A stretch of DNA of 64,000 nucleotides, from positions 64,720-128,719 of the forward strand of contig JBBQHP010000003.1 in assembly GCA_038324085.1 (NCBI GenBank), given 5' to 3'. The first letter of the stretch is position 1. Each line of letters opens with the position of its first letter. The notes under the pieces were generated by a model, which was not told the origin of the DNA, searched no databases, and saw only the letters and a list, made by a program, of their open reading frames with translations. This document shows positions 295 through 31,909 of this stretch, piece after piece. The stretch is from Burkholderiales bacterium (GTDB lineage Bacteria > Pseudomonadota > Gammaproteobacteria > Burkholderiales > Ga0077523). The translations under genes and the position numbers were made by a program.

Positions 295-1596
295 TCAGCC
301 CTCTGTATCCGGTAGCGACAGGTCCCGGACGATGCGCACGTCGCGTTGTGGAAACGGTATCTCGATACCCGCGGCTTGGAAGGCCTCGAAGATGCGCAGA
401 TTGAGCTCGGAGCGAAGATTCGCGCGCCCCCCCTCCGGATCGGCGATCCAGATCATGAGTTCGAGATTGATCCCACTGTCCCCAAAGTCTTTGACGAACG
501 CTACCGGTGCCGGCTGCGGCACCACCCGCGGAGAGGCTAGCGCCGCGGACTGCAACGTTTCAAGTGCGAGCCTGAGGTCGGTCGAGTATGCGACCTGTAT
601 CCCCAGGTCGATCCGCGCGAGGCGATCCGAATAGGAATGATTCAGGACAGTTGACGTGATCACGGATTCGTTCGGGATGATGGCCTCGGTCCCGTCATAA
701 CCCTTCACCACCACGTAGCGAGCAGTGAGCCGCGTCACTTCACCGTAGCGATTGTCGATGGTGACCAAATCGCCCAGCTTGATGGAACGGTCCAACAGGA
801 TCGCGAAGCCGCTGACGTAGTTGGCGGCGATCTTCTGCAGTCCGAACCCGAGGCCCACGCCCACGGCACCGCCGAATACCGACAGCACCGTCACGTCGAT
901 CCCCATCAGCGGCAACGCAATCAGCACCGAGAACACGAGGAACACGGCCTTTACCGTCTTCGCGAAGACGACGCGCAGATTCACGTCCAATTGGCTCAGG
1001 GCCATGATCCTGCTTTCGGCCAGACGTCCGACCCACATTGCAAGCAGGATCGTGATCGCAACCGACAACGTGCCCTCGATCACGTTCAGCAGCGAGATGC
1101 TGTGCGCGCCGAGCGGCAATGTGAGCTCGTCGAGCCACGCTCGAATCTGCGGAAGCAGTCCGGTGATGTGCAGGACTGCAACCACCCACATCGTCCAGGC
1201 GATCGCACGCTCGGAACTCTTCAACCAGCCCCCGGGTGCGAATACGTGTCGCAGCACGTAAATCGTGATCCGGATGACCACGAGCGATGAAGACAGCGGG
1301 ATGGCGATGTTGAGCAGGTTGACCGGATGATGGAATTGCAGCGCCCAGCGCCCGACCAGCAGGAGCAACCATCCGATTGCCGGATTCAGCACACGCATGA
1401 GCCCGCCGGTTCCGAGGCGAAACGCGTCTTCACCGGCCTGCGCTTCGGCACGAACCTGGATCAACCGCGGACGTAGCGCGCGCGCGATGAGCCAAGCACC
1501 ACCGAGACACGCCGCGATGATCCCGACCTGCCATACGATCGAGACAGTCTCAATCTCTGAAATCAGCGCTACGAGGAGATTGGGAGGTTGGCTCAA
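295..1596 (-). CDS. mechanosensitive ion channel, MscS family
   Basis: 433-aa ORF with N-terminal TM helices followed by an MscS pore/beta-domain pattern: GLGFGLQKIAANYVSGFAILLDRSIKLGDLVTI...GEVTRLTARYVVVKGYDGTEAIIPNESV. Confidence 0.85.
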   Translation of the reverse strand: MSQPPNLLVALISEIETVSIVWQVGIIAACLGGAWLIARALRPRLIQVRAEAQAGEDAFRLGTGGLMRVLNPAIGWLLLLVGRWALQFHHPVNLLNIAIPLSSSLVVIRITIYVLRHVFAPGGWLKSSERAIAWTMWVVAVLHITGLLPQIRAWLDELTLPLGAHSISLLNVIEGTLSVAITILLAMWVGRLAESRIMALSQLDVNLRVVFAKTVKAVFLVFSVLIALPLMGIDVTVLSVFGGAVGVGLGFGLQKIAANYVSGFAILLDRSIKLGDLVTIDNRYGEVTRLTARYVVVKGYDGTEAIIPNESVITSTVLNHSYSDRLARIDLGIQVAYSTDLRLALETLQSAALASPRVVPQPAPVAFVKDFGDSGINLELMIWIADPEGGRANLRSELNLRIFEAFQAAGIEIPFPQRDVRIVRDLSLPDTEG

Positions 1597-1652: not shown

Positions 1653-2933
1653 TCAGAGCGGACGCGAAAGCACCGCCGCGAAGAAGCCGTCGGTGTCGTG
1701 GAGTGCGGGATTCAAGCGAAGGTAGGGCCCCTCACCGCCGATCGAAATGTCGAAAGCGCGCAGCACGACGTGCGCATCCAGAAGCGACCATCCGGAATGC
1801 TCATCAAGGAAGGCGTCGACTACCGACTCATTCTCTTCCGGCAGCAGACTGCACGTAACGTATACCACCCGTCCGCCTGGTTTTGCCAACCGCGCTGCCG
1901 CGCGCAGTATCGTCGACTGTTTCGCGGTCAGTTCCCGGATCGCTTCCAGACTCATTCTCCATTTAAGGTCGGGATTGCGTCTTAGGGTGCCGGTCCCGCT
2001 ACAGGGTGCGTCCACCAGGACCCGATCGATCTTGCCGGCGAGCCGCTTCACCCGTGCGTCATTTTCTGAATCGATGAGCTGCGGGTGCACGTTCGAAAGC
2101 CCGCTTCGTTTCAAGCGCGGCCGCAAATTCAATAGCCGCTTTTCCGAGGTGTCGAAAGCATAGAGCCGGCCCTCCGATCGCATCGCGGCGCCCAATGCGA
2201 GCGTCTTCCCGCCGGCGCCCGCACAGAAATCGACGACCATCTGATGACGCCGCGCATCGACCAGCAAAGAGACAATCTGACTGCCTTCGTCCTGCACCTC
2301 GACGTGACCACCAGTGATGAGTGCGTGACGCTCCAGGGCCAGCTTGGATTTCAGGCGAACGCCGATCGGAGAAAGCGCTGTCGCGGTCGCCTCTATTCCG
2401 CTCTCGTGCAACGTGGCCAGCACCTCGTCGCGCCGAGTGAGCATCGTGTTTACTCGGAGATCCATCGGTGCGGACGTCAGCAGTTTTCGCGCGAGCGCGA
2501 GTCTGCCTTCCGCGTCGAAAACGGTCCCGAGCCGGTCCCACAGCCAATCCGGCAACGACAAGCGCTGCGCATCAGTTTCCAACGGCTCCCGTGAGCGGAT
2601 CGAAGTCAACCACTCGGCCTCGCCGGGGAAGAGCGATCTTTCCACTGTGCGCAGATTGTGTCCGCCGATGCGTGTAAGGCAAGCGAGCACCAGACGACGT
2701 GGGCCGCGTCCTCCGGCCAGTACCTCGAGCCATCGGAGATTGCGCAGGATCGCGAATACCGTATCCGCGACGAAAGCCCGATCGCGCACCCCCAGCTTCG
2801 TGTTGTCCCGGAACCACGCGCGCAGCGTCGCATCGGCCGGCCGTTCCAGCGGCAAAACCGCGCTCAATGCGTCCACGACGACGCCGATGCGCTGCGGCGT
2901 GAGTTCCGAAGTCATGGGCGAATCCGGCCGCAC
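1653..2933 (-). CDS. RsmB/NOP2/Sun-family RNA cytosine-C5 methyltransferase
   Basis: 426-aa ORF. It carries the SAM motif DFCAGAGGKT and the catalytic Cys motifs DAPCSGTGTLRRNPD and VYVTCSL. Confidence 0.85.
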   Translation of the reverse strand: MRPDSPMTSELTPQRIGVVVDALSAVLPLERPADATLRAWFRDNTKLGVRDRAFVADTVFAILRNLRWLEVLAGGRGPRRLVLACLTRIGGHNLRTVERSLFPGEAEWLTSIRSREPLETDAQRLSLPDWLWDRLGTVFDAEGRLALARKLLTSAPMDLRVNTMLTRRDEVLATLHESGIEATATALSPIGVRLKSKLALERHALITGGHVEVQDEGSQIVSLLVDARRHQMVVDFCAGAGGKTLALGAAMRSEGRLYAFDTSEKRLLNLRPRLKRSGLSNVHPQLIDSENDARVKRLAGKIDRVLVDAPCSGTGTLRRNPDLKWRMSLEAIRELTAKQSTILRAAARLAKPGGRVVYVTCSLLPEENESVVDAFLDEHSGWSLLDAHVVLRAFDISIGGEGPYLRLNPALHDTDGFFAAVLSRPL

Positions 2934-27422: not shown

Positions 27423-27575
27423 ATGGCTGACATGCAAAGAAGCGGCTCGCTGTCGGGGCTGACGGAGGACGAAGCCAAGCAGTTTCACGGCATCTTCGTG
27501 ACCAGCTTCATCGTGTTCACGGTGATCGCAATCGTCGCGCACATCCTGGCGTGGAGCTGGCGCCCCTGGTTGTAA
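27423..27575 (+). CDS. pufB: light-harvesting 1 beta polypeptide
   Basis: ATG 27423 (GGAGG upstream) gives [50 protein letters not shown]. It has the canonical beta motifs, including AH..AW.WRPW. Confidence 0.9.
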
Positions 27576-27604
27576 CCGGGCGCTGCCTCGAGGAGGGCTC
27601 GCAA

Positions 27605-27829
27605 ATGTCTGACGGACGAAACCAATCGCTACCGGCGCTCGCGCAGAACGGGTCGAACGGGTTCGGCGTCATCTTCTTGTCGAGCTTCATCGTCTTTCTG
27701 CTGGTGGCGCTGTTCGCGCAGACATTCGCGCTGCAGTGGCGGACCTGGTTTCCCGGGGCCGAGGGGGAAAGGTCGATGATCGGAGGCGTGAAGACGGCGG
27801 TCTACACCTTTATGTCGCATCTGTCATAG
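27605..27829 (+). CDS. LH1 beta-like paralogue lacking the BChl-ligating His, with a C-terminal extension
   Basis: ATG 27605, 7 nt after GAGGAGGG, gives MSDGRNQSLPALAQNGSNGFGVIFLSSFIVFLLVALFAQTFALQWRTWFPGAEGERSMIGGVKTAVYTFMSHLS. It aligns gap-free with PufB residues 21-50 (14/30 identical). GC3 is about 82%. The stop lies inside the pufA SD. Confidence 0.6.
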   Translation: MSDGRNQSLPALAQNGSNGFGVIFLSSFIVFLLVALFAQTFALQWRTWFPGAEGERSMIGGVKTAVYTFMSHLS

Positions 27830-27841
27830 GAGACGAGAAAC

Positions 27842-28024
27842 ATGTGGAGAATCTGGCTTCTGTTCGATCCGCGCAGGTCGTTGGTTGCGCTGTTCACGTT
27901 CCTGTTCGTGCTGGCGTTGCTGATCCATTTCATTCTGTTGAGCAGCGACAAGTACAACTGGATCGAGGGTTCGAAGGCGCACGGCGGCGGAACACCGCCC
28001 GCGGTGCCGGCGGCCCAGAAATAG
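27842..28024 (+). CDS. pufA: light-harvesting 1 alpha polypeptide
   Basis: [43 protein letters not shown]... carries the canonical alpha motifs IW..FDPRR and A..IH..LLS....NW. AGGAGA SD. Confidence 0.9.
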
Positions 28025-28141: not shown

Positions 28142-28963
28142 ATGTCGATGCTCAGCTTTGAAAGGAAGTACCGCGTTCGAGGTGGAACGCTGCTCGGGGG
28201 AGACCTGTTCGATTTCTGGGTCGGGCCGTTCTACGTGGGCTTCTTCGGGGTCACCACGGCGTTCTTCGCATTGCTCGGCACCGCGCTGATCGTATACGGC
28301 GCAGCGATCGGACCGACCTGGAATATCTGGCAGATCAGTATCGCCCCGCCGGACCTGAAATACGGACTCGCGTTCGCACCGTTGAAGGAGGGCGGGCTCT
28401 GGCAGCTCATCACCTTCTGCGCGGTCGGATCGTTCTGCTCATGGGCGCTGCGCGAGGCCGAGATCTGCCGCAAGCTCGGCATCGGCTACCACGTGCCCGT
28501 CGCGTTCGGTTTCGCGATCCTCGCCTACGTGACGCTCGTCGTGTTCCGGCCCCTGCTCCTGGGCGCCTGGGGCCACGGTTTTCCCTACGGAATACTGAGC
28601 CACCTCGACTGGGTCTCGAATACCGGTTACCAGTACCTGCACTTTCATTACAACCCGGCGCACATGATCGCGGTGAGCTTCTTCTTCACCACGACTCTCG
28701 CGCTGTCGCTCCACGGCGCGTTGATCCTCTCGGCGACCAGTCCGGCGAAGGGCGAGCCGATGAAGACCCCGGAGCACGAGAACACGTTCTTCCGGGACAC
28801 GATCGGCTACTCCATCGGACCCCTCGGAATCCATCGACTCGGCCTGTTCCTCGCGCTGAGCGCGGTGTTCTGGAGCGCGGTCTGCATCATCATCAGCGGA
28901 CCTTTCTGGACGCGCGGCTGGCCGGAGTGGTGGGGTTGGTGGCTCAACCTGCCGATCTGGTAA
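28142..28963 (+). CDS. pufL: photosynthetic reaction centre L subunit
   Basis: 273-aa ORF containing [33 protein letters not shown] and [22 protein letters not shown]. Confidence 0.97.
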
Positions 28964-28989
28964 CGAGAACCAAAAACTAGGGGACCACC

Positions 28990-29967
28990 ATGGCGGAATA
29001 CCAGAACATTTTCACGCGCGTGCAGGTTCGTGGACCTGCCTATGCCGGCGTGCCGCTCGGCCGCGGCGCCTATCGCCGCGACGGCAAGCCGTTCTTCGTG
29101 CACCTGCTCGGGCGGCTGGGCGATGCGCAGGTCGGACCGATCTATCTCGGCTGGACCGGCATCGCGTCGCTGATCTGCGGCTTCATCGCGTTCGAGATCG
29201 TCGGGCTCAACATGTTCGCTTCGGTCAACTGGGACCCGGTGCAGTTCGCGCGGCAGCTGTTCTGGCTCGGTCTGGAACCGCCGGCGCCCGAGTACGGGCT
29301 GCACATACCGCCGTTGCGACAGGGCGGATGGTGGCTCATGGCCGGGATGTTCATGACGGCGTCGGTCCTGCTGTGGTGGACGCGCATGTATCGGCGGGCC
29401 AAGGCGCTCGGCATGGGCACGCACGTGGCCTGGGCGTTCGCGTCCGCCATCTGGCTCATGCTCGTGCTCGGCTTCATCCGCCCGCTGCTCATGGGCAGCT
29501 GGAGCGAGGCAGTGCCGTTCGGCATCTTCCCGCATCTCGACTGGACCGCGGCGTTCTCGATCCGCTATGGCAACCTGTTCTACAACCCGTTCCACATGCT
29601 CTCCATCGCGTTCCTGTACGGGTCGGCGCTGCTGTTCGCGATGCACGGCGCGACGATCCTCGCGGTCAGCCGGTTCGGCGGTGATCGCGAACTCGAGCAG
29701 GTGGTCGATCGCGGCACAGCTTCCGAGCGGGCCGCATTGTTCTGGCGCTGGACCATGGGCTTCAACGCGACGATGGAATCGATCCATCGCTGGGCGTGGT
29801 GGTTCGCGGTGCTGACGCCGCTGTGCGGCGGCATCGGCATCCTGCTGACCGGCACCGTGGTGGACAACTGGTACCTGTGGGCAGTCAAGCACCACGTGGC
29901 GCCGGCGTATCCGTCGGTCTTTCCCCCGGCCATCGATCCGGCCGCGCTGAGCGGGGTGGCCAAATGA
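28990..29967 (+). CDS. pufM: photosynthetic reaction centre M subunit
   Basis: 325-aa ORF containing [16 protein letters not shown] and [44 protein letters not shown]. Confidence 0.97.
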
Positions 29968-29987
29968 ACGGTTCGGGGAGGTTCGTG

Positions 29988-31355
29988 ATGCATACCAGCG
30001 CACGCCGACTCGGCGGGGTATTCGCCTTGGGGCTCGCCGCCCTGCTCGTCGGTTGCGAACGGCCGCCGACCGAGACCGTACAGCGCGGCTACCGGGGCAC
30101 GGGAATGGTCGAGGTCTACAACCCGCGCACGATCGACAAGCAGCAGGAGGCGAACAAGGTGCCGGAGCCCATCCCGGCGGCGGCGCCCGGCGGCCCCTCT
30201 GCGGCGTCGACGTTCAAGAACGTGAAGGTGCTGAACGACCTCTCGGCCGCCGAGTTCACGCGCGTCATGGTGGCGATCACGAGCTGGGTCTCGCCGAAGG
30301 AAGGCTGCGCGTACTGCCACCAGGGTGCGGATTTCGCCGACGACTCGCTCTACACGAAGGTGGTCGCACGACGCATGCTGGAGATGACGCGCCACATCAA
30401 CGCAGACTGGAAAAATCACGTCGCCGAAACGGGTGTGACCTGCTATACGTGTCACCGCGGCCAACCGGTGCCGCAGAACGTCTGGTTCACCGATCCGGGA
30501 CCGAGGATGGCCAAGGGTCTCGCGGGCGGACTGGGCGAGCAGAACCTGCCCGCCGCAGAGGCCGGACTCGCCGCCCTGCCGCACGATCCGCTGTCGCGCT
30601 TCCTCGTCAAGGACAATCCCATCCGCGTCGTATCCGGCCATGCCTTGCCCACCGAGGGCGGGAAGTCGATCCCGCAGACGGAGTGGACCTATGCGCTGAT
30701 GATGTACATGTCCGAGTCGCTGGGGGTCAACTGCACGTATTGCCACAACAGCCGATCCTTCGCGCAATGGGAAACGAGCAGTCCACCGCGCACGACTGCG
30801 TGGTACGGCATCAGATTGGCGCGTGATCTCAACACGGCGTACCTGGAACCGTTGAGCTCGATCTTTCCGAAAGGGCGCCTCGGCCCGCTCGGCGATCCGC
30901 CCAAGGTCGGTTGCGGTACCTGCCATCAGGGCGTCTACAAGCCTTTGTACGGAGCGACGATGGCCAAGGATTATCCGGAACTCGGACCGGGTCACGGCGC
31001 ACCTGCCCCCGAACCGGAGAAGACCTCGGATGCGGCCGATGCCCCTGGCGTGCTCGGCAAGATCCTGTTCGAAACCGGCAGCCGGAACCTCGATGCGGAC
31101 AACCTGAAGGTGATCGACGAGGTCGCTCGCCAGTTGCAGGGCGACGCGGCACTCAACATCGCGATCTCGGGCTACGCCGATAAGAGCGGCAATGCGGACA
31201 AGAACCTGGAACTCGCCAAACAGCGCGCCTTCGCGGTTCGGGACGCGTTGAAGACCGCCGGCGTCCACGAGGACCGGATCGAGCTGAAGAAGCCCGCGTT
31301 CGTGATCGGCGCCGCGCAGGCTGATTCGCGTCGGGTGGACATCGTCACCCAATAG
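29988..31355 (+). CDS. pufC: reaction-centre tetraheme cytochrome c subunit with a C-terminal OmpA-like domain
   Basis: ATG 29988 (GGGGAGG 7 nt upstream; alternative ATG 29964 overlaps the pufM stop). Lipobox LAALLVGC. Four CxxCH motifs (CAYCH, CYTCH, CTYCH, CGTCH). A Pro/Ala linker is followed by an OmpA_C-like segment at about 31047..31352. Confidence 0.9.
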   Translation: MHTSARRLGGVFALGLAALLVGCERPPTETVQRGYRGTGMVEVYNPRTIDKQQEANKVPEPIPAAAPGGPSAASTFKNVKVLNDLSAAEFTRVMVAITSWVSPKEGCAYCHQGADFADDSLYTKVVARRMLEMTRHINADWKNHVAETGVTCYTCHRGQPVPQNVWFTDPGPRMAKGLAGGLGEQNLPAAEAGLAALPHDPLSRFLVKDNPIRVVSGHALPTEGGKSIPQTEWTYALMMYMSESLGVNCTYCHNSRSFAQWETSSPPRTTAWYGIRLARDLNTAYLEPLSSIFPKGRLGPLGDPPKVGCGTCHQGVYKPLYGATMAKDYPELGPGHGAPAPEPEKTSDAADAPGVLGKILFETGSRNLDADNLKVIDEVARQLQGDAALNIAISGYADKSGNADKNLELAKQRAFAVRDALKTAGVHEDRIELKKPAFVIGAAQADSRRVDIVTQ

Positions 31356-31382
31356 CGCACTGATTCCACGCAAGTGTCCGCT

Positions 31383-31410
31383 GAAGGGCGGCCCGCCAGG
31401 GTCGCCCTTC
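31383..31410 (+). terminator. strong hairpin 28 nt after the pufC stop (terminator or 3-prime stabiliser)
   Basis: GAAGGGCGGCCC-gcca-GGGTCGCCCTTC forms a roughly 12-bp stem including one G-U pair, followed by ATTCATCT (only a weak U-tract). Confidence 0.5.
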
Positions 31411-31840
31411 ATTCATCTGGGCGGGGGCGCGGGGGGTATCGACGAGCGGCCTCCGCATGTCGGCATGCAGGACAACCCGGCGGCTCGCGCGGGTCATCAC
31501 CGGCAGGCGAAGGCCGGATCGACACGTCGCACTTCGGTGCCGCCGCGTGATGCGATGGCGCCAGGCCGGATCGAACCGCCGACGTGGCAGCGAAGCGCGC
31601 CCCGACGCAGTTCGACCGGCCCGTTCCGGACGTCCGGTTCAGGCGTTCTCCCGGTTGGAACTGTGTCGCCGGCTGAGCGGGATATCGGCCGGTACCCGCC
31701 ACCATCGCCGATCCGATACGCCGATCCGTGCACCGCGGCGAATCGCGGTGCAGTGCCGGGTCTGCCGTACCGCCCGCGCCCCCGGTTCCCGGTGAATCAG
31801 ATGAGTACGCAGGCGCCTGGCTAAGCCCCAGTTCGCTGTC

Positions 31841-31885
31841 GTCCCGGCGGGGCAGGATCCCGGGACTCGTTCTCTATTCGTTACC
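31841..31885 (+). terminator. second hairpin plus T-rich tail at the end of the post-pufC non-coding region
   Basis: GTCCCGG-12 nt-CCGGGAC (31841..31866) is followed by TCGTTCTCTATTCGTT. The T-rich side is on the plus strand, so the orientation fits a plus-strand transcript rather than puhE. Confidence 0.35.
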
Positions 31886-31909
31886 TATCGGCGACGGCCG
31901 GGGGCGACG

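What the first reader, a model, noticed from the sequence alone, without database searches (positions are those of the whole stretch)
30975..31355. Reaction-centre cytochrome PufC carries a C-terminal OmpA-like peptidoglycan-binding domain
PufC has the expected lipobox (LAALLVGC) and four CxxCH haem motifs, but the ORF continues well past the cytochrome. First comes a Pro/Ala linker, PELGPGHGAPAPEPEKTSDAADAP (about 30975..31046). Then comes a roughly 100-residue segment (31047..31352): KILFETGSRNLDADNLKVIDEVARQLQGDAALNIAISGYADKSGNADKNLELAKQRAFAVRDALKTAGVHEDRIE...SRRVDIV. This follows the OmpA/MotB/Pal C-terminal pattern (F...S..L, I.G..D..G, N..L[SA]..RA..V, RRV[DE]I), including the Asp and Arg positions that contact peptidoglycan in that family. 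From memory, PufC proteins are about 330-370 aa with no such domain, whereas this one is 455 aa. Inference: the periplasmic tetraheme subunit, and therefore the RC-LH1 core, could be tethered to the cell wall as well as lipid-anchored.
Basis: partly seen in the sequence, partly recalled or inferred. Interest (0 to 1): 0.6.

Follow-up and report, generated by a model that had tools for sequence, protein, structure and literature searches.

The report
Reaction-centre cytochrome with cell-wall-binding domain
The four-haem cytochrome of this bacterium's photosynthetic reaction centre really does end in a conserved OmpA-type cell-wall-binding domain, a design shared by about a quarter of phototrophic Burkholderiales, barely noted in the literature, and likely to leash the photosystem to peptidoglycan.

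Summary
pufC (29988..31355, +) is one uninterrupted 455-aa ORF. It has a lipobox signal peptide, a PufC tetrahaem domain (PF02276, E 8e-144; four CxxCH), a 22-aa Pro/Ala/Gly linker and an OmpA-like domain (PF00691, 51.5 bits against a cut-off of 27.2). The domain alone folds confidently (pLDDT 88) as beta-alpha-beta-alpha-beta-beta. It superposes on Pal, OprF, A. baumannii OmpA, MotB and YfiB (TM 0.7-0.8). Asp398 and Arg413 sit at the family's two peptidoglycan-contact positions.

It is not an artefact. 116 of the 120 closest protein clusters carry the same fusion, an independent assembly spans the junction, and dN/dS of the domain (0.15) matches that of the cytochrome (0.12).

It is not unique either. 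9 of 32 PufC-bearing genomes in an even sample of the order are fused, including cultured strains. The domain comes in two lineages (Asp type and Ser type) and has been gained, swapped and lost repeatedly. Close congeners carry deletion scars that keep only the last ~10 codons.

The only mention I found is one passage in a 2025 preprint, which calls such fusions rare and possibly gene-model errors. Peptidoglycan binding is inferred, not shown. This is a new variant of a known kind, of moderate interest.

The parts
29988..31355 (+). pufC, whole gene including the stop codon. It encodes a 455-aa reaction-centre tetrahaem cytochrome fused to an OmpA-like domain, and is the last gene of pufBALMC.
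   Evidence: ORF and translation. Pfam and NCBIfam matches. A GGGGAGG Shine-Dalgarno sequence lies 6 nt upstream of the ATG at 29988.
29988..30056 (+). Lipoprotein signal peptide, residues 1-23, with lipobox LLVG|C. Cys23 is the predicted lipid-anchored first residue of the mature protein.
   Evidence: Read from the sequence. Cys23 and Glu24 are invariant in 34 aligned fused homologues.
30057..30983 (+). Tetrahaem cytochrome domain, residues 24-332. The CxxCH motifs lie at 30306-30320, 30441-30455, 30732-30746 and 30912-30926.
   Evidence: PF02276 E 7.7e-144 and NF040706 at 473 bits. Best PDB matches are reaction-centre cytochrome subunits.
30984..31049 (+). Pro/Ala/Gly/Glu-rich flexible linker, residues 333-354 (GPGHGAPAPEPEKTSDAADAPGVL...).
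   Evidence: AF2 pLDDT is below 50 for residues 337-353. Sequence is poorly conserved, at 53% identity to G007. Across 114 fused homologues the linker median is 21 aa, with a range of 12-79.
31050..31352 (+). OmpA-like domain, residues 355-455. The Pfam match covers 31065-31286.
   Evidence: PF00691 at 51.5 bits. The AF2 model has pLDDT 87.9 with a beta-alpha-beta-alpha-beta-beta topology. Foldseek against the PDB returns Pal, OprF, A. baumannii OmpA, MotB and YfiB at probability 1.0 and TM 0.68-0.79. dN/dS is 0.146.
31179..31181 (+). Asp398 codon (GAT), at the family's canonical peptidoglycan (m-DAP)-contacting Asp position in 'GYAD398KSG'.
   Evidence: It aligns with the D of GYTD/GHTD in YiaD and A. 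baumannii Pal. 89 of 116 fused homologues keep Asp and 26 have Ser.
31224..31226 (+). Arg413 codon (CGC), at the canonical Arg of the 'N..L[SA]..RA' motif. It lies 15 residues after Asp398, the same spacing as in E. coli OmpA D241/R256.
   Evidence: The residue is invariant in alignments A1 and A2 and aligns with the R of 'QRA'/'RRA' in solved OmpA-like domains.
31383..31410 (+). GC-rich hairpin (GAAGGGCGGCC...GGTCGCCCTTC) followed by a T-rich stretch. It is the probable puf operon terminator.
   Evidence: Read from the sequence. The hairpin is conserved downstream of pufC in congeners G007 and G020.
28142..29967 (+). Context: pufL (28142..28963) and pufM (28990..29967), immediately upstream. 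pufA is at 27842..28024.
   Evidence: ORF translations with typical L and M subunit sequences. PF00556 antenna-protein hits fall at window positions about 27471 and 27842.

Best explanation
pufC here encodes a genuine three-part periplasmic protein. It has an N-terminal lipid anchor (Cys23), the tetrahaem cytochrome that docks on the RC L/M subunits and re-reduces the special pair, and an OmpA-like domain on a ~22-residue flexible Pro/Ala linker. The most likely mechanism is that the OmpA-like domain binds the peptide stem (m-DAP) of peptidoglycan non-covalently through Asp398 and Arg413, as in Pal, OmpA, MotB and YiaD. The RC-LH1 core in the cytoplasmic membrane would then be leashed to the sacculus. 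The expected consequences are reduced lateral mobility, placement of the photosystem in flat, wall-apposed membrane, and/or a cytochrome subunit held more firmly on the RC. The module is accessory, not essential: it is gained, swapped and lost among close relatives. Shown here: the architecture, the fold, the conserved contact residues, purifying selection and the distribution. Inferred: peptidoglycan binding in vivo and its consequences for the photosystem.
For: - Domain calls: PF02276 plus PF00691, both above their gathering scores, and a PufC equivalog match.
- Fold: the AF2 model of residues 341-455 has pLDDT 87.9. Foldseek top hits are all peptidoglycan-binding OmpA-like domains, including the DAP-bound A. 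baumannii OmpA entry 3td5.
- Contact residues: Asp398 and Arg413 align with the family's canonical Asp and Arg. Arg413, Asn406 and Gly395/401 are invariant in fused homologues.
- Purifying selection: dN/dS against congener G007 is 0.146 for the OmpA domain and 0.116 for the cytochrome domain.
- Not an artefact: 116 of the best 120 clusters at 90% identity carry the fusion. An independent Logan contig spans the junction with no differences. No split or adjacent module gene occurs in 56 loci with short PufC.
- Topology is workable: inner-membrane-anchored proteins with OmpA-like domains on linkers are an established class (YiaD is the best PDB profile hit, and MotB also matches). The same module is fused to other periplasm-facing inner-membrane energy proteins, namely CoxB in G050 and an H+-PPase.
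- Precedent: the module profile also hits the C-terminal extension of Gloeobacter PSI PsaB (7f4v chain aB, E 1e-7). That extension was hypothesised to anchor PSI to peptidoglycan (PMC11565984).
Against: - No binding data exist for this or any fused PufC.
- About a quarter of fused homologues (type B, 26 of 116) have Ser at the canonical Asp position, so peptidoglycan binding may not be universal in the class.
- The module is dispensable. Sister lineages G018-G020 deleted it and kept an intact PufC, and most PufCs lack it.
- The C-terminal third of the Pfam model (positions 77-98) is not matched. This part is shorter than in canonical domains, although RRVDI is kept.
- The analogous Gloeobacter PsaB extension was not resolved in the PSI structure (PMC11565984), so even the precedent is unproven.
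- The cytochrome part of the full-length AF2 model was poor (pLDDT about 40-70), so I could not measure whether the linker reaches the wall.
- Fusion shows no association with absence of a second (LH2-like) antenna gene pair: 6 of 9 fused genomes have one, against 12 of 23 unfused.
Confidence: 0.68

Rival explanations
1. The fusion is real, but the OmpA-like domain does not bind peptidoglycan. Instead it would act as a protein-protein module, for example by docking a soluble electron donor, binding an envelope partner in the way Pal binds TolB, or promoting RC-LH1 self-association.
For: Type-B fused PufCs replace the canonical Asp with Ser yet are conserved. The last part of the canonical Pfam profile is not matched. 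OmpA-like domains such as Pal and YfiB do have protein partners, as in the TolB/Pal and YfiB/YfiR complexes among the Foldseek hits.
Against: The window's protein is type A, with both canonical contact residues and the invariant Asn/Arg motif. No conserved partner gene lies next to pufC: the downstream region is 554 nt of non-coding sequence followed by a puhE-like gene on the opposite strand. The same module sits on unrelated host proteins (CoxB, H+-PPase, YidB-like, DUF937). That fits a generic ligand such as peptidoglycan better than a specific protein partner.
Confidence: 0.2
2. The domain is removed after translation, so the fusion only co-expresses or co-exports a small peptidoglycan-binding protein with the reaction centre. 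The functional RC would then carry an ordinary PufC.
For: The linker is flexible, Pro/Ala-rich and poorly conserved, which makes it a plausible protease target. The Gloeobacter PsaB extension was not seen in the PSI structure (PMC11565984).
Against: No conserved cleavage motif appears in the linker across homologues. Stand-alone versions of the module carry their own membrane anchor (the 181-aa TM+OmpA protein in G011), which suggests the module works while anchored. For Gloeobacter PsaB the extension was reportedly detected by mass spectrometry in purified PSI (PMC11565984).
Confidence: 0.07
3. Artefact or decaying relic. Either an assembly or gene-calling error joined pufC to a neighbouring OmpA-family gene, or the extension is a neutral remnant with no function.
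For: The window comes from a metagenome-assembled genome. The 2025 preprint raised inaccurate gene models as a possibility for Puf-OmpA fusions (10.1101/2025.09.22.677880). Close relatives have lost the domain.
Against: The same in-frame architecture occurs in 116 of the 120 nearest clusters, which come from JGI, ENA, NCBI and Logan assemblies. It also occurs in complete genomes of isolates such as Piscinibacterium candidicorallinum LMG 29480, and a single-contig congener, G007, has it too. An independent contig spans the junction. dN/dS is 0.146 at dS of about 1.2. No split form is found in any of 56 short-PufC loci.
Confidence: 0.02

Closest known systems
Canonical RC-bound tetrahaem cytochrome PufC (for example Blastochloris viridis 1PRC/1DXR, Thermochromatium tepidum 3WMM, Allochromatium 8WDU/7VRJ)
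   Same: Residues 24-332 match the full PufC profile. The protein has four CxxCH motifs and an N-terminal lipobox Cys, and the gene sits directly after pufM.
   Different: All 23 distinct PufC-type chains in the PDB are 311-405 aa and end in at most a short or low-complexity tail. None has an OmpA-like domain. This protein adds a 22-aa linker and a ~100-aa folded OmpA-like domain.
Gloeobacter violaceus photosystem I PsaB C-terminal extension (7F4V chain aB; proposed peptidoglycan anchor)
   Same: A core photosystem subunit of a membrane that faces the cell wall carries a C-terminal OmpA-like module on its periplasmic side. The PufC-module profile hits PsaB residues 751-862 at E 1e-7. The same tethering hypothesis was proposed for it (PMC11565984, citing Inoue et al. 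2004).
   Different: The photosystem type differs (type I, oxygenic) and the host subunit is a membrane-integral core protein, not a peripheral cytochrome. The case is confined to Gloeobacter and is likewise unproven: the extension is not resolved in the structure.
Inner-membrane-anchored OmpA-like proteins: YiaD, MotB/PomB, TssL, YfiB
   Same: A membrane or lipid anchor, a flexible linker and an OmpA-like peptidoglycan-binding domain. YiaD is the best PDB profile hit (E 2.7e-15) and MotB and YfiB are among the Foldseek hits. The canonical Asp and Arg are kept.
   Different: In those proteins the OmpA-like domain is the main periplasmic part and anchors a stator, a secretion baseplate or a signalling lipoprotein. 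Here it is appended to a redox protein of a photosystem.
Pal (peptidoglycan-associated lipoprotein)
   Same: Pal gives the best structural matches (5n2c, 2hqs, 1oap, 4g4w; TM 0.72-0.78). The 'GYAD..G' motif resembles Pal's 'GHAD/GHTDERG'.
   Different: Pal is an outer-membrane lipoprotein of the Tol-Pal system. The NCBIfam Pal equivalog scores only 40 bits against a cut-off of 125, so this protein is not a Pal orthologue.
Puf-OmpA fusions noted in bioRxiv 10.1101/2025.09.22.677880 (section 3.4, Fig. 10E)
   Same: It is the same phenomenon: PufM or PufC homologues carrying an OmpA-like domain.
   Different: That paper reports a few examples, calls them relatively rare and could not exclude gene-model errors. 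Here the PufC fusion proves common in Burkholderiales, real, selected, of two module lineages, and repeatedly gained and lost.

Membership tests
PufC (photosynthetic reaction-centre cytochrome c subunit; PF02276 / NF040706) | Full-length match to the family profile above the curated cut-off | tested here: met
   PF02276 scores 479 bits against a cut-off of 22.4, covering profile positions 1-309 of 310. The NF040706 equivalog scores 473 bits against a cut-off of 150.
PufC (photosynthetic reaction-centre cytochrome c subunit; PF02276 / NF040706) | Four CxxCH haem-binding motifs | tested here: met
   CAYCH at 107-111, CYTCH at 152-156, CTYCH at 249-253 and CGTCH at 309-313. In the 34-sequence alignment the Cys of all four motifs and the His of three are invariant.
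PufC (photosynthetic reaction-centre cytochrome c subunit; PF02276 / NF040706) | Encoded in the puf operon directly after pufM, and exported with an N-terminal anchor | tested here: met
   pufL, pufM and pufC are contiguous at 28142..31355. The lipobox is LLVGC23.
PufC (photosynthetic reaction-centre cytochrome c subunit; PF02276 / NF040706) | Binds the RC and donates electrons to the special pair | not testable with these tools
   Inferred from orthology only.
OmpA-like / OmpA_C peptidoglycan-binding domain (PF00691) | Profile match above the gathering score | tested here: met
   51.5 bits in the full protein and 55.4 bits for the isolated tail, against a cut-off of 27.2. Only profile positions 1-76 of 98 are covered.
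OmpA-like / OmpA_C peptidoglycan-binding domain (PF00691) | The beta-alpha-beta-alpha-beta-beta fold of the family | tested here: met
   AF2 gives pLDDT 87.9 with elements E15-20, H30-45, E51-58, H63-83, E91-93, E97-99 and E109-114. Foldseek against the PDB gives 122 hits at E<=1e-3; all 50 best shown are OmpA-like domains (Pal, OmpA/OprF, MotB, YfiB, PorE), and those of ranks 1-22 have TM 0.68-0.79.
OmpA-like / OmpA_C peptidoglycan-binding domain (PF00691) | Conserved Asp and Arg that contact m-DAP (E. coli OmpA D241/R256; A. baumannii OmpA D271/R286, numbering from my own knowledge) | tested here: met
   D398 and R413 lie 15 residues apart and align with the D of G[HY]TD and the R of xRA in YiaD, A. 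baumannii Pal and PA0833. In type-B fused PufCs the Asp is replaced by Ser.
OmpA-like / OmpA_C peptidoglycan-binding domain (PF00691) | Actual non-covalent binding to peptidoglycan | not testable with these tools
   This needs a sacculus pull-down or a muropeptide-binding assay.
Pal (TIGR02802 / PRK10802) | Equivalog-level match and outer-membrane lipoprotein architecture in the tol-pal operon | tested here: not met
   40.3 bits against a cut-off of 125, and 25.6 bits against a cut-off of 261. The domain is C-terminal to a cytochrome in the puf operon.

The most novel reading that the evidence does not exclude
Peptidoglycan leashing may be a general, modular strategy for energy-converting complexes of the cytoplasmic membrane. 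One family of portable OmpA-like modules, in two lineages, has been grafted repeatedly onto the periplasmic ends of RC cytochrome PufC, cytochrome oxidase subunit II, an H+-pyrophosphatase, PufM in other phyla (per the preprint), and PsaB in Gloeobacter. In carriers such as this bacterium the RC-LH1 core would then be physically immobilised on the sacculus. That would fix where photosynthetic units sit and keep them out of membrane invaginations or vesicles.
Probability: 0.3. Interest if true: 0.72.

Novelty: new variant of a known kind. Interest (0 to 1): 0.5.

Why it matters
Models of purple-bacterial photosynthesis treat RC-LH1 as a complex that diffuses freely or packs in the membrane. The periplasmic cytochrome is pictured as projecting into empty periplasm. 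A conserved wall-binding domain on that cytochrome would add a mechanical link between photosystem and sacculus. That link would bear on photosystem mobility, membrane architecture and the retention of the easily lost cytochrome subunit. About 28% of PufC-bearing genomes in a sample of Burkholderiales have the domain.

The idea can be tested directly. Cultured carriers exist: Piscinibacterium candidicorallinum LMG 29480, strain AAP99, Hydrogenophaga luteola KCTC 42501, Azohydromonas sediminis and Variovorax rhizosphaerae. Natural deletion variants within one genus provide ready-made comparisons. The result also corrects the one published remark that such fusions are rare and may be gene-model errors. 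Finally, it ties in with the long-untested Gloeobacter PsaB anchor hypothesis.

Tried and rejected
- **Assembly or gene-model artefact: rejected.** The fusion is conserved in 116 of the 120 nearest clusters, isolates with complete genomes carry it, and an independent contig spans the junction.
- **Read-through of two adjacent genes: rejected.** None of 56 short-PufC loci has a module gene within about 4 kb.
- **Fused PufC marks phototrophs without peripheral antenna (a proxy for no intracytoplasmic membranes): not supported.** 6 of 9 fused genomes and 12 of 23 unfused genomes have a second antenna gene pair. The window's own genome has only pufBA.
- **Single origin of the fusion: not supported.** The cytochrome-domain tree needs 15 changes by parsimony, of which at least 4 are forced by well-supported branches. 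Module types A and B are interleaved on that tree.
- **Fusion outside the order.** In a phylum-wide even sample of 401 genomes only 2 of 16 PufCs were fused, and both lie in the window's own order. A long PufC in another class (G594) turned out to have an acidic low-complexity tail, not an OmpA domain. The sample is small, so earlier notes claiming fusions in other orders are neither confirmed nor excluded.
- **Linker reach.** The full-length AF2 model was meant to show whether the linker reaches the wall, but its cytochrome part is too poorly predicted without haems (pLDDT 40-70).
- **Literature.** Searches for PufC with OmpA or peptidoglycan, 'tetraheme cytochrome' with OmpA-like, and 'cytochrome subunit' with OmpA found only the passing mention in one preprint.
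- **Read-level check.** Only Logan contigs, not raw reads, were available for the source metagenome, so this is an independent assembly and not independent data.
Full report
**1. What is in the sequence**

The finding lies at the 3' end of pufC. The ORF list and translation give one uninterrupted frame, 29988..31355 (+), 455 aa, directly after pufL (28142..28963) and pufM (28990..29967). A GGGGAGG Shine-Dalgarno sequence lies 6 nt upstream of the ATG at 29988. An in-frame ATG at 29964 overlaps the pufM stop and would add 8 residues; a 463-aa version is in the protein collection.

The protein starts with a lipoprotein signal peptide (…LAALLVG|C23) and has four CxxCH motifs at 107, 152, 249 and 309. 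After '…AKDYPEL' it continues into a Pro/Ala/Gly/Glu-rich stretch and then about 100 further residues. Downstream lie a GC-rich hairpin (31383..31410), about 500 nt without a convincing ORF, and a puhE-like gene and acsF on the minus strand.

**2. Is the C-terminal segment an OmpA-like domain?**

Yes, on three lines of evidence.

- **Profile match.** Pfam gives CytoC_RC for residues 24-332 (E 7.7e-144) and OmpA PF00691 for residues 360-433 (E 1.4e-13, 51.5 bits, gathering score 27.2). The isolated tail scores 55.4 bits. NCBIfam calls the protein a PufC equivalog (473 bits, cut-off 150). It lists sub-threshold matches of the tail to YiaD, PdsO, YfiB, Pal, TssL and MotB models, so the tail is OmpA-like without being an orthologue of any named family.
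- **Predicted fold.** With 33 homologous tails as the alignment, AlphaFold2 folds residues 341-455 at mean pLDDT 87.9 into beta-alpha-beta-alpha-beta-beta. Foldseek against the PDB returns 122 hits at E<=1e-3. All 50 best hits shown are OmpA-like domains: Pal from several species, OprF, A. baumannii OmpA with bound DAP peptide (3td5), MotB, YfiB, YiaD and PorE. The best of them have TM-scores of 0.68-0.79.
- **Contact residues.** In profile alignments to solved domains, the window's 'SGYAD398KSGNADKN406LELAKQR413AFAV' lines up with 'GYTDSTG…N..LSQQRA' of YiaD and 'GHTDERG…N..LGERRA' of Pal. Asp398 and Arg413 are 15 residues apart, as are D241 and R256 of E. coli OmpA. These are the residues known to hold the m-DAP moiety of the peptide stem (my knowledge of the A. 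baumannii OmpA and Pal structures).
- **Caveat.** The last quarter of the Pfam model is not matched. The segment between the last helix and 'RRVDI' is shorter than in canonical domains.

**3. Is the fusion real?**

Yes.

- The word-indexed search of 5.8 billion proteins returned 7,848 PufC relatives. 116 of the best 120 clusters (54-76% identity, median 457 aa) carry the OmpA motif, and Pfam's precomputed annotation agrees.
- These come from JGI, ENA, NCBI and Logan assemblies. They include isolates or complete genomes: Piscinibacterium candidicorallinum LMG 29480, Beta proteobacterium AAP99, Hydrogenophaga luteola KCTC 42501, Azohydromonas sediminis and Variovorax rhizosphaerae.
- The window comes from a sediment metagenome. 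Logan's independent contig from that run crosses the cytochrome/OmpA junction with no differences at about 14x depth.
- Against the fused orthologue of congener G007 (78% identity), dN/dS is 0.116 for the cytochrome, 0.146 for the OmpA domain and 0.19 for the linker, at dS of about 1.1-1.2. The extra domain is therefore as constrained as the cytochrome.
- None of 56 loci with a short PufC encodes the module separately within about 4 kb, so this is not a fused gene model of two neighbours.

**4. How common is it, and how did it arise?**

*Frequency.* In an even sample of 301 genomes of the window's GTDB order, 32 have PufC and 9 of those are fused, spread over four families. Named relatives identify the order as Burkholderiales/Betaproteobacteria. 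In a phylum-wide even sample of 401 genomes, 16 have PufC. Only 2 are fused, both in the same order. One long PufC elsewhere (G594, 566 aa) has a hyper-acidic low-complexity tail instead.

*Within the window's genus.* Only G007 shares the fusion, and 15 other PufC-bearing congeners have short PufCs. A maximum-likelihood tree of the cytochrome domain (90 sequences) places the window and G007, both fused, as successive outgroups to the short forms G018-G020 (clade support 100). Overall the tree needs 15 gain/loss events, at least 4 of them forced by well-supported branches.

*Deletion scars.* The short congeners still carry traces of the lost domain.

| Genome | C-terminal sequence |
|---|---|
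| G020 | …YPELGGGHAAPEKKSDAGTGA-RAERQRTNVARQ* (the linker plus a diverged copy of the last ~11 codons) |
| G019 | …GGAHAAAK* followed in frame by PDSPVPRVDIIVQ* |
| Window | …ADSRRVDIVTQ* |

The DNA alignment confirms that the last ~30 nt and the terminator hairpin are homologous. In this genus, therefore, the domain was ancestral and was deleted in one sub-lineage, and the short PufC that remains keeps an open reading frame.

*Two module lineages.* Type A, which includes the window, reads 'G[YF]AD[KR][TS]G…KPEFVIGGA..[DE][AS]RRV[DE]'. Type B reads 'GYHSASG…KP…EAN..GED..ARRVEV' and has Ser at the Asp position. Of the 116 clusters, 89 have Asp and 26 have Ser. On a module tree, A and B separate once (support 99). 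On the cytochrome tree they are interleaved, with A and B as sisters at support of 95 or more in two places. So the module has been acquired or exchanged more than once.

*Other host proteins.* A profile of the module, searched against 1.84 billion representatives, finds 54 proteins at E<=1e-30. Many are small, with the module at the C-terminus. Others are fusions to YidB-like and DUF937 domains and to an H+-pyrophosphatase. In G050 of the same order the module (42% identical) follows COX2_TM+COX2+cytochrome c, that is, cytochrome oxidase subunit II. In G011 it follows a single TM helix.

**5. How it most likely works**

*Established parts.* PufC is a periplasmic subunit held on the cytoplasmic membrane by its lipid anchor and by the RC. 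OmpA-like domains bind peptidoglycan non-covalently. Inner-membrane proteins such as MotB, YiaD and TssL reach the wall through flexible linkers.

*Inference.* The 22-residue Pro/Ala linker (family median 21, interquartile range 18-25, range 12-79) lets the domain reach the sacculus from the cytochrome, which itself projects several nanometres into the periplasm. That would leash RC-LH1 to the wall. Plausible consequences are restricted diffusion or positioning of photosynthetic units in wall-apposed membrane, and firmer retention of the cytochrome.

*Limits.* Because the module is lost without loss of pufC, it must be an accessory, condition-dependent benefit and not a core requirement. I could not verify the geometry, because the haem-free AF2 model of the cytochrome part is poor. 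A proxy test of the idea that tethering goes with a lack of peripheral antenna or intracytoplasmic membrane showed no association.

**6. Comparison with what is known**

- No solved RC cytochrome has such a domain.
- The closest conceptual precedent is the C-terminal extension of Gloeobacter violaceus PsaB, which my module profile detects in PDB entry 7F4V (E 1e-7). It was proposed to anchor PSI to peptidoglycan but is not resolved in the structure (PMC11565984).
- Full-text searches found a single mention of Puf-OmpA fusions. It is bioRxiv 10.1101/2025.09.22.677880, section 3.4 and Fig. 10E, which reports a few PufM and PufC homologues with an OmpA-like domain. It calls them relatively rare and cannot rule out inaccurate gene models.
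- Public annotations call these proteins simply 'PufC'.
- Earlier notes of this scan describe the same fusion in other genomes. I used them only as leads: to look for the passing mention, and for the PsaB precedent, which I then verified independently.

**7. Verdict**

Peptidoglycan tethering is likely (about 0.68) but untested.

The gene is one member of a sizeable, essentially uncharacterised class of PufC variants in Burkholderiales, so it is a new variant of a known kind and not a unique oddity. Interest is moderate (0.5). The class is surprising to photosynthesis specialists, directly testable in cultured strains, and linked to a possibly general habit of leashing membrane energy complexes to the wall. 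However, it is a domain fusion visible in domain databases and has already been glimpsed in one preprint.

Noticed in passing
L095 701..2218 (+) = G050:C137, same order: Cytochrome c oxidase subunit II (COX2_TM + COX2 + a cytochrome c domain) carries the same Ala/Pro linker and OmpA-like module at its C-terminus. The protein is 505 aa, the module is 42% identical to the PufC module, and PF00691 scores 54.9 bits. It is a second inner-membrane redox complex with a putative wall tether.
   Followed up: partly
P0170 (586 aa, metagenomic representative): A membrane H+-pyrophosphatase (PF03030, E 4e-177; N-terminally truncated record) ends in a type-B-like OmpA module. Other close module relatives are fused to YidB-like (PF20159) and DUF937 (PF06078) domains. 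This suggests a promiscuous, portable module family.
   Followed up: partly
L094 2520..3065 (-) = G011:C28, same genus: A stand-alone 181-aa protein with one N-terminal TM helix, an Ala/Pro/Gly linker and an OmpA module 48% identical to the PufC module. It occurs in a congener whose PufC is short, and is a possible donor type for the fusion.
   Followed up: partly
L006 about 2490..2560 (G019) and L008 about 1395..1520, minus strand (G020): Deletion scars in congeners. G019's pufC has a TAG stop after '…AAAK', followed in frame by PDSPVPRVDIIVQ*. G020's pufC keeps the linker fused to a diverged copy of the last ~11 codons. Both retain the terminator hairpin.
   Followed up: yes
L104 118..1818 (-) = G594:C1, another class of the same phylum: A 566-aa PufC with an uncleaved N-terminal TM helix and a ~190-aa hyper-acidic (D/E/A/T-rich) low-complexity C-terminal tail. 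The congener G568 has a 382-aa PufC without it. This is a different and unexplained kind of PufC extension.
   Followed up: no
window 31356..31909: About 550 nt between the pufC stop and the puhE-like gene contain no convincing ORF. The pufC terminator hairpin at 31383..31410 is conserved in congeners. An earlier first-reader note flags this tail as structured non-coding sequence. I did not examine it further.
   Followed up: no
window 27471..28024 and the whole genome G000: Only one antenna gene pair (pufBA) is present in the 100%-complete genome, and no LH2-like pucBA. This is an LH1-only phototroph with acsF next to the puf operon, a pattern typical of aerobic anoxygenic phototrophs.
   Followed up: partly
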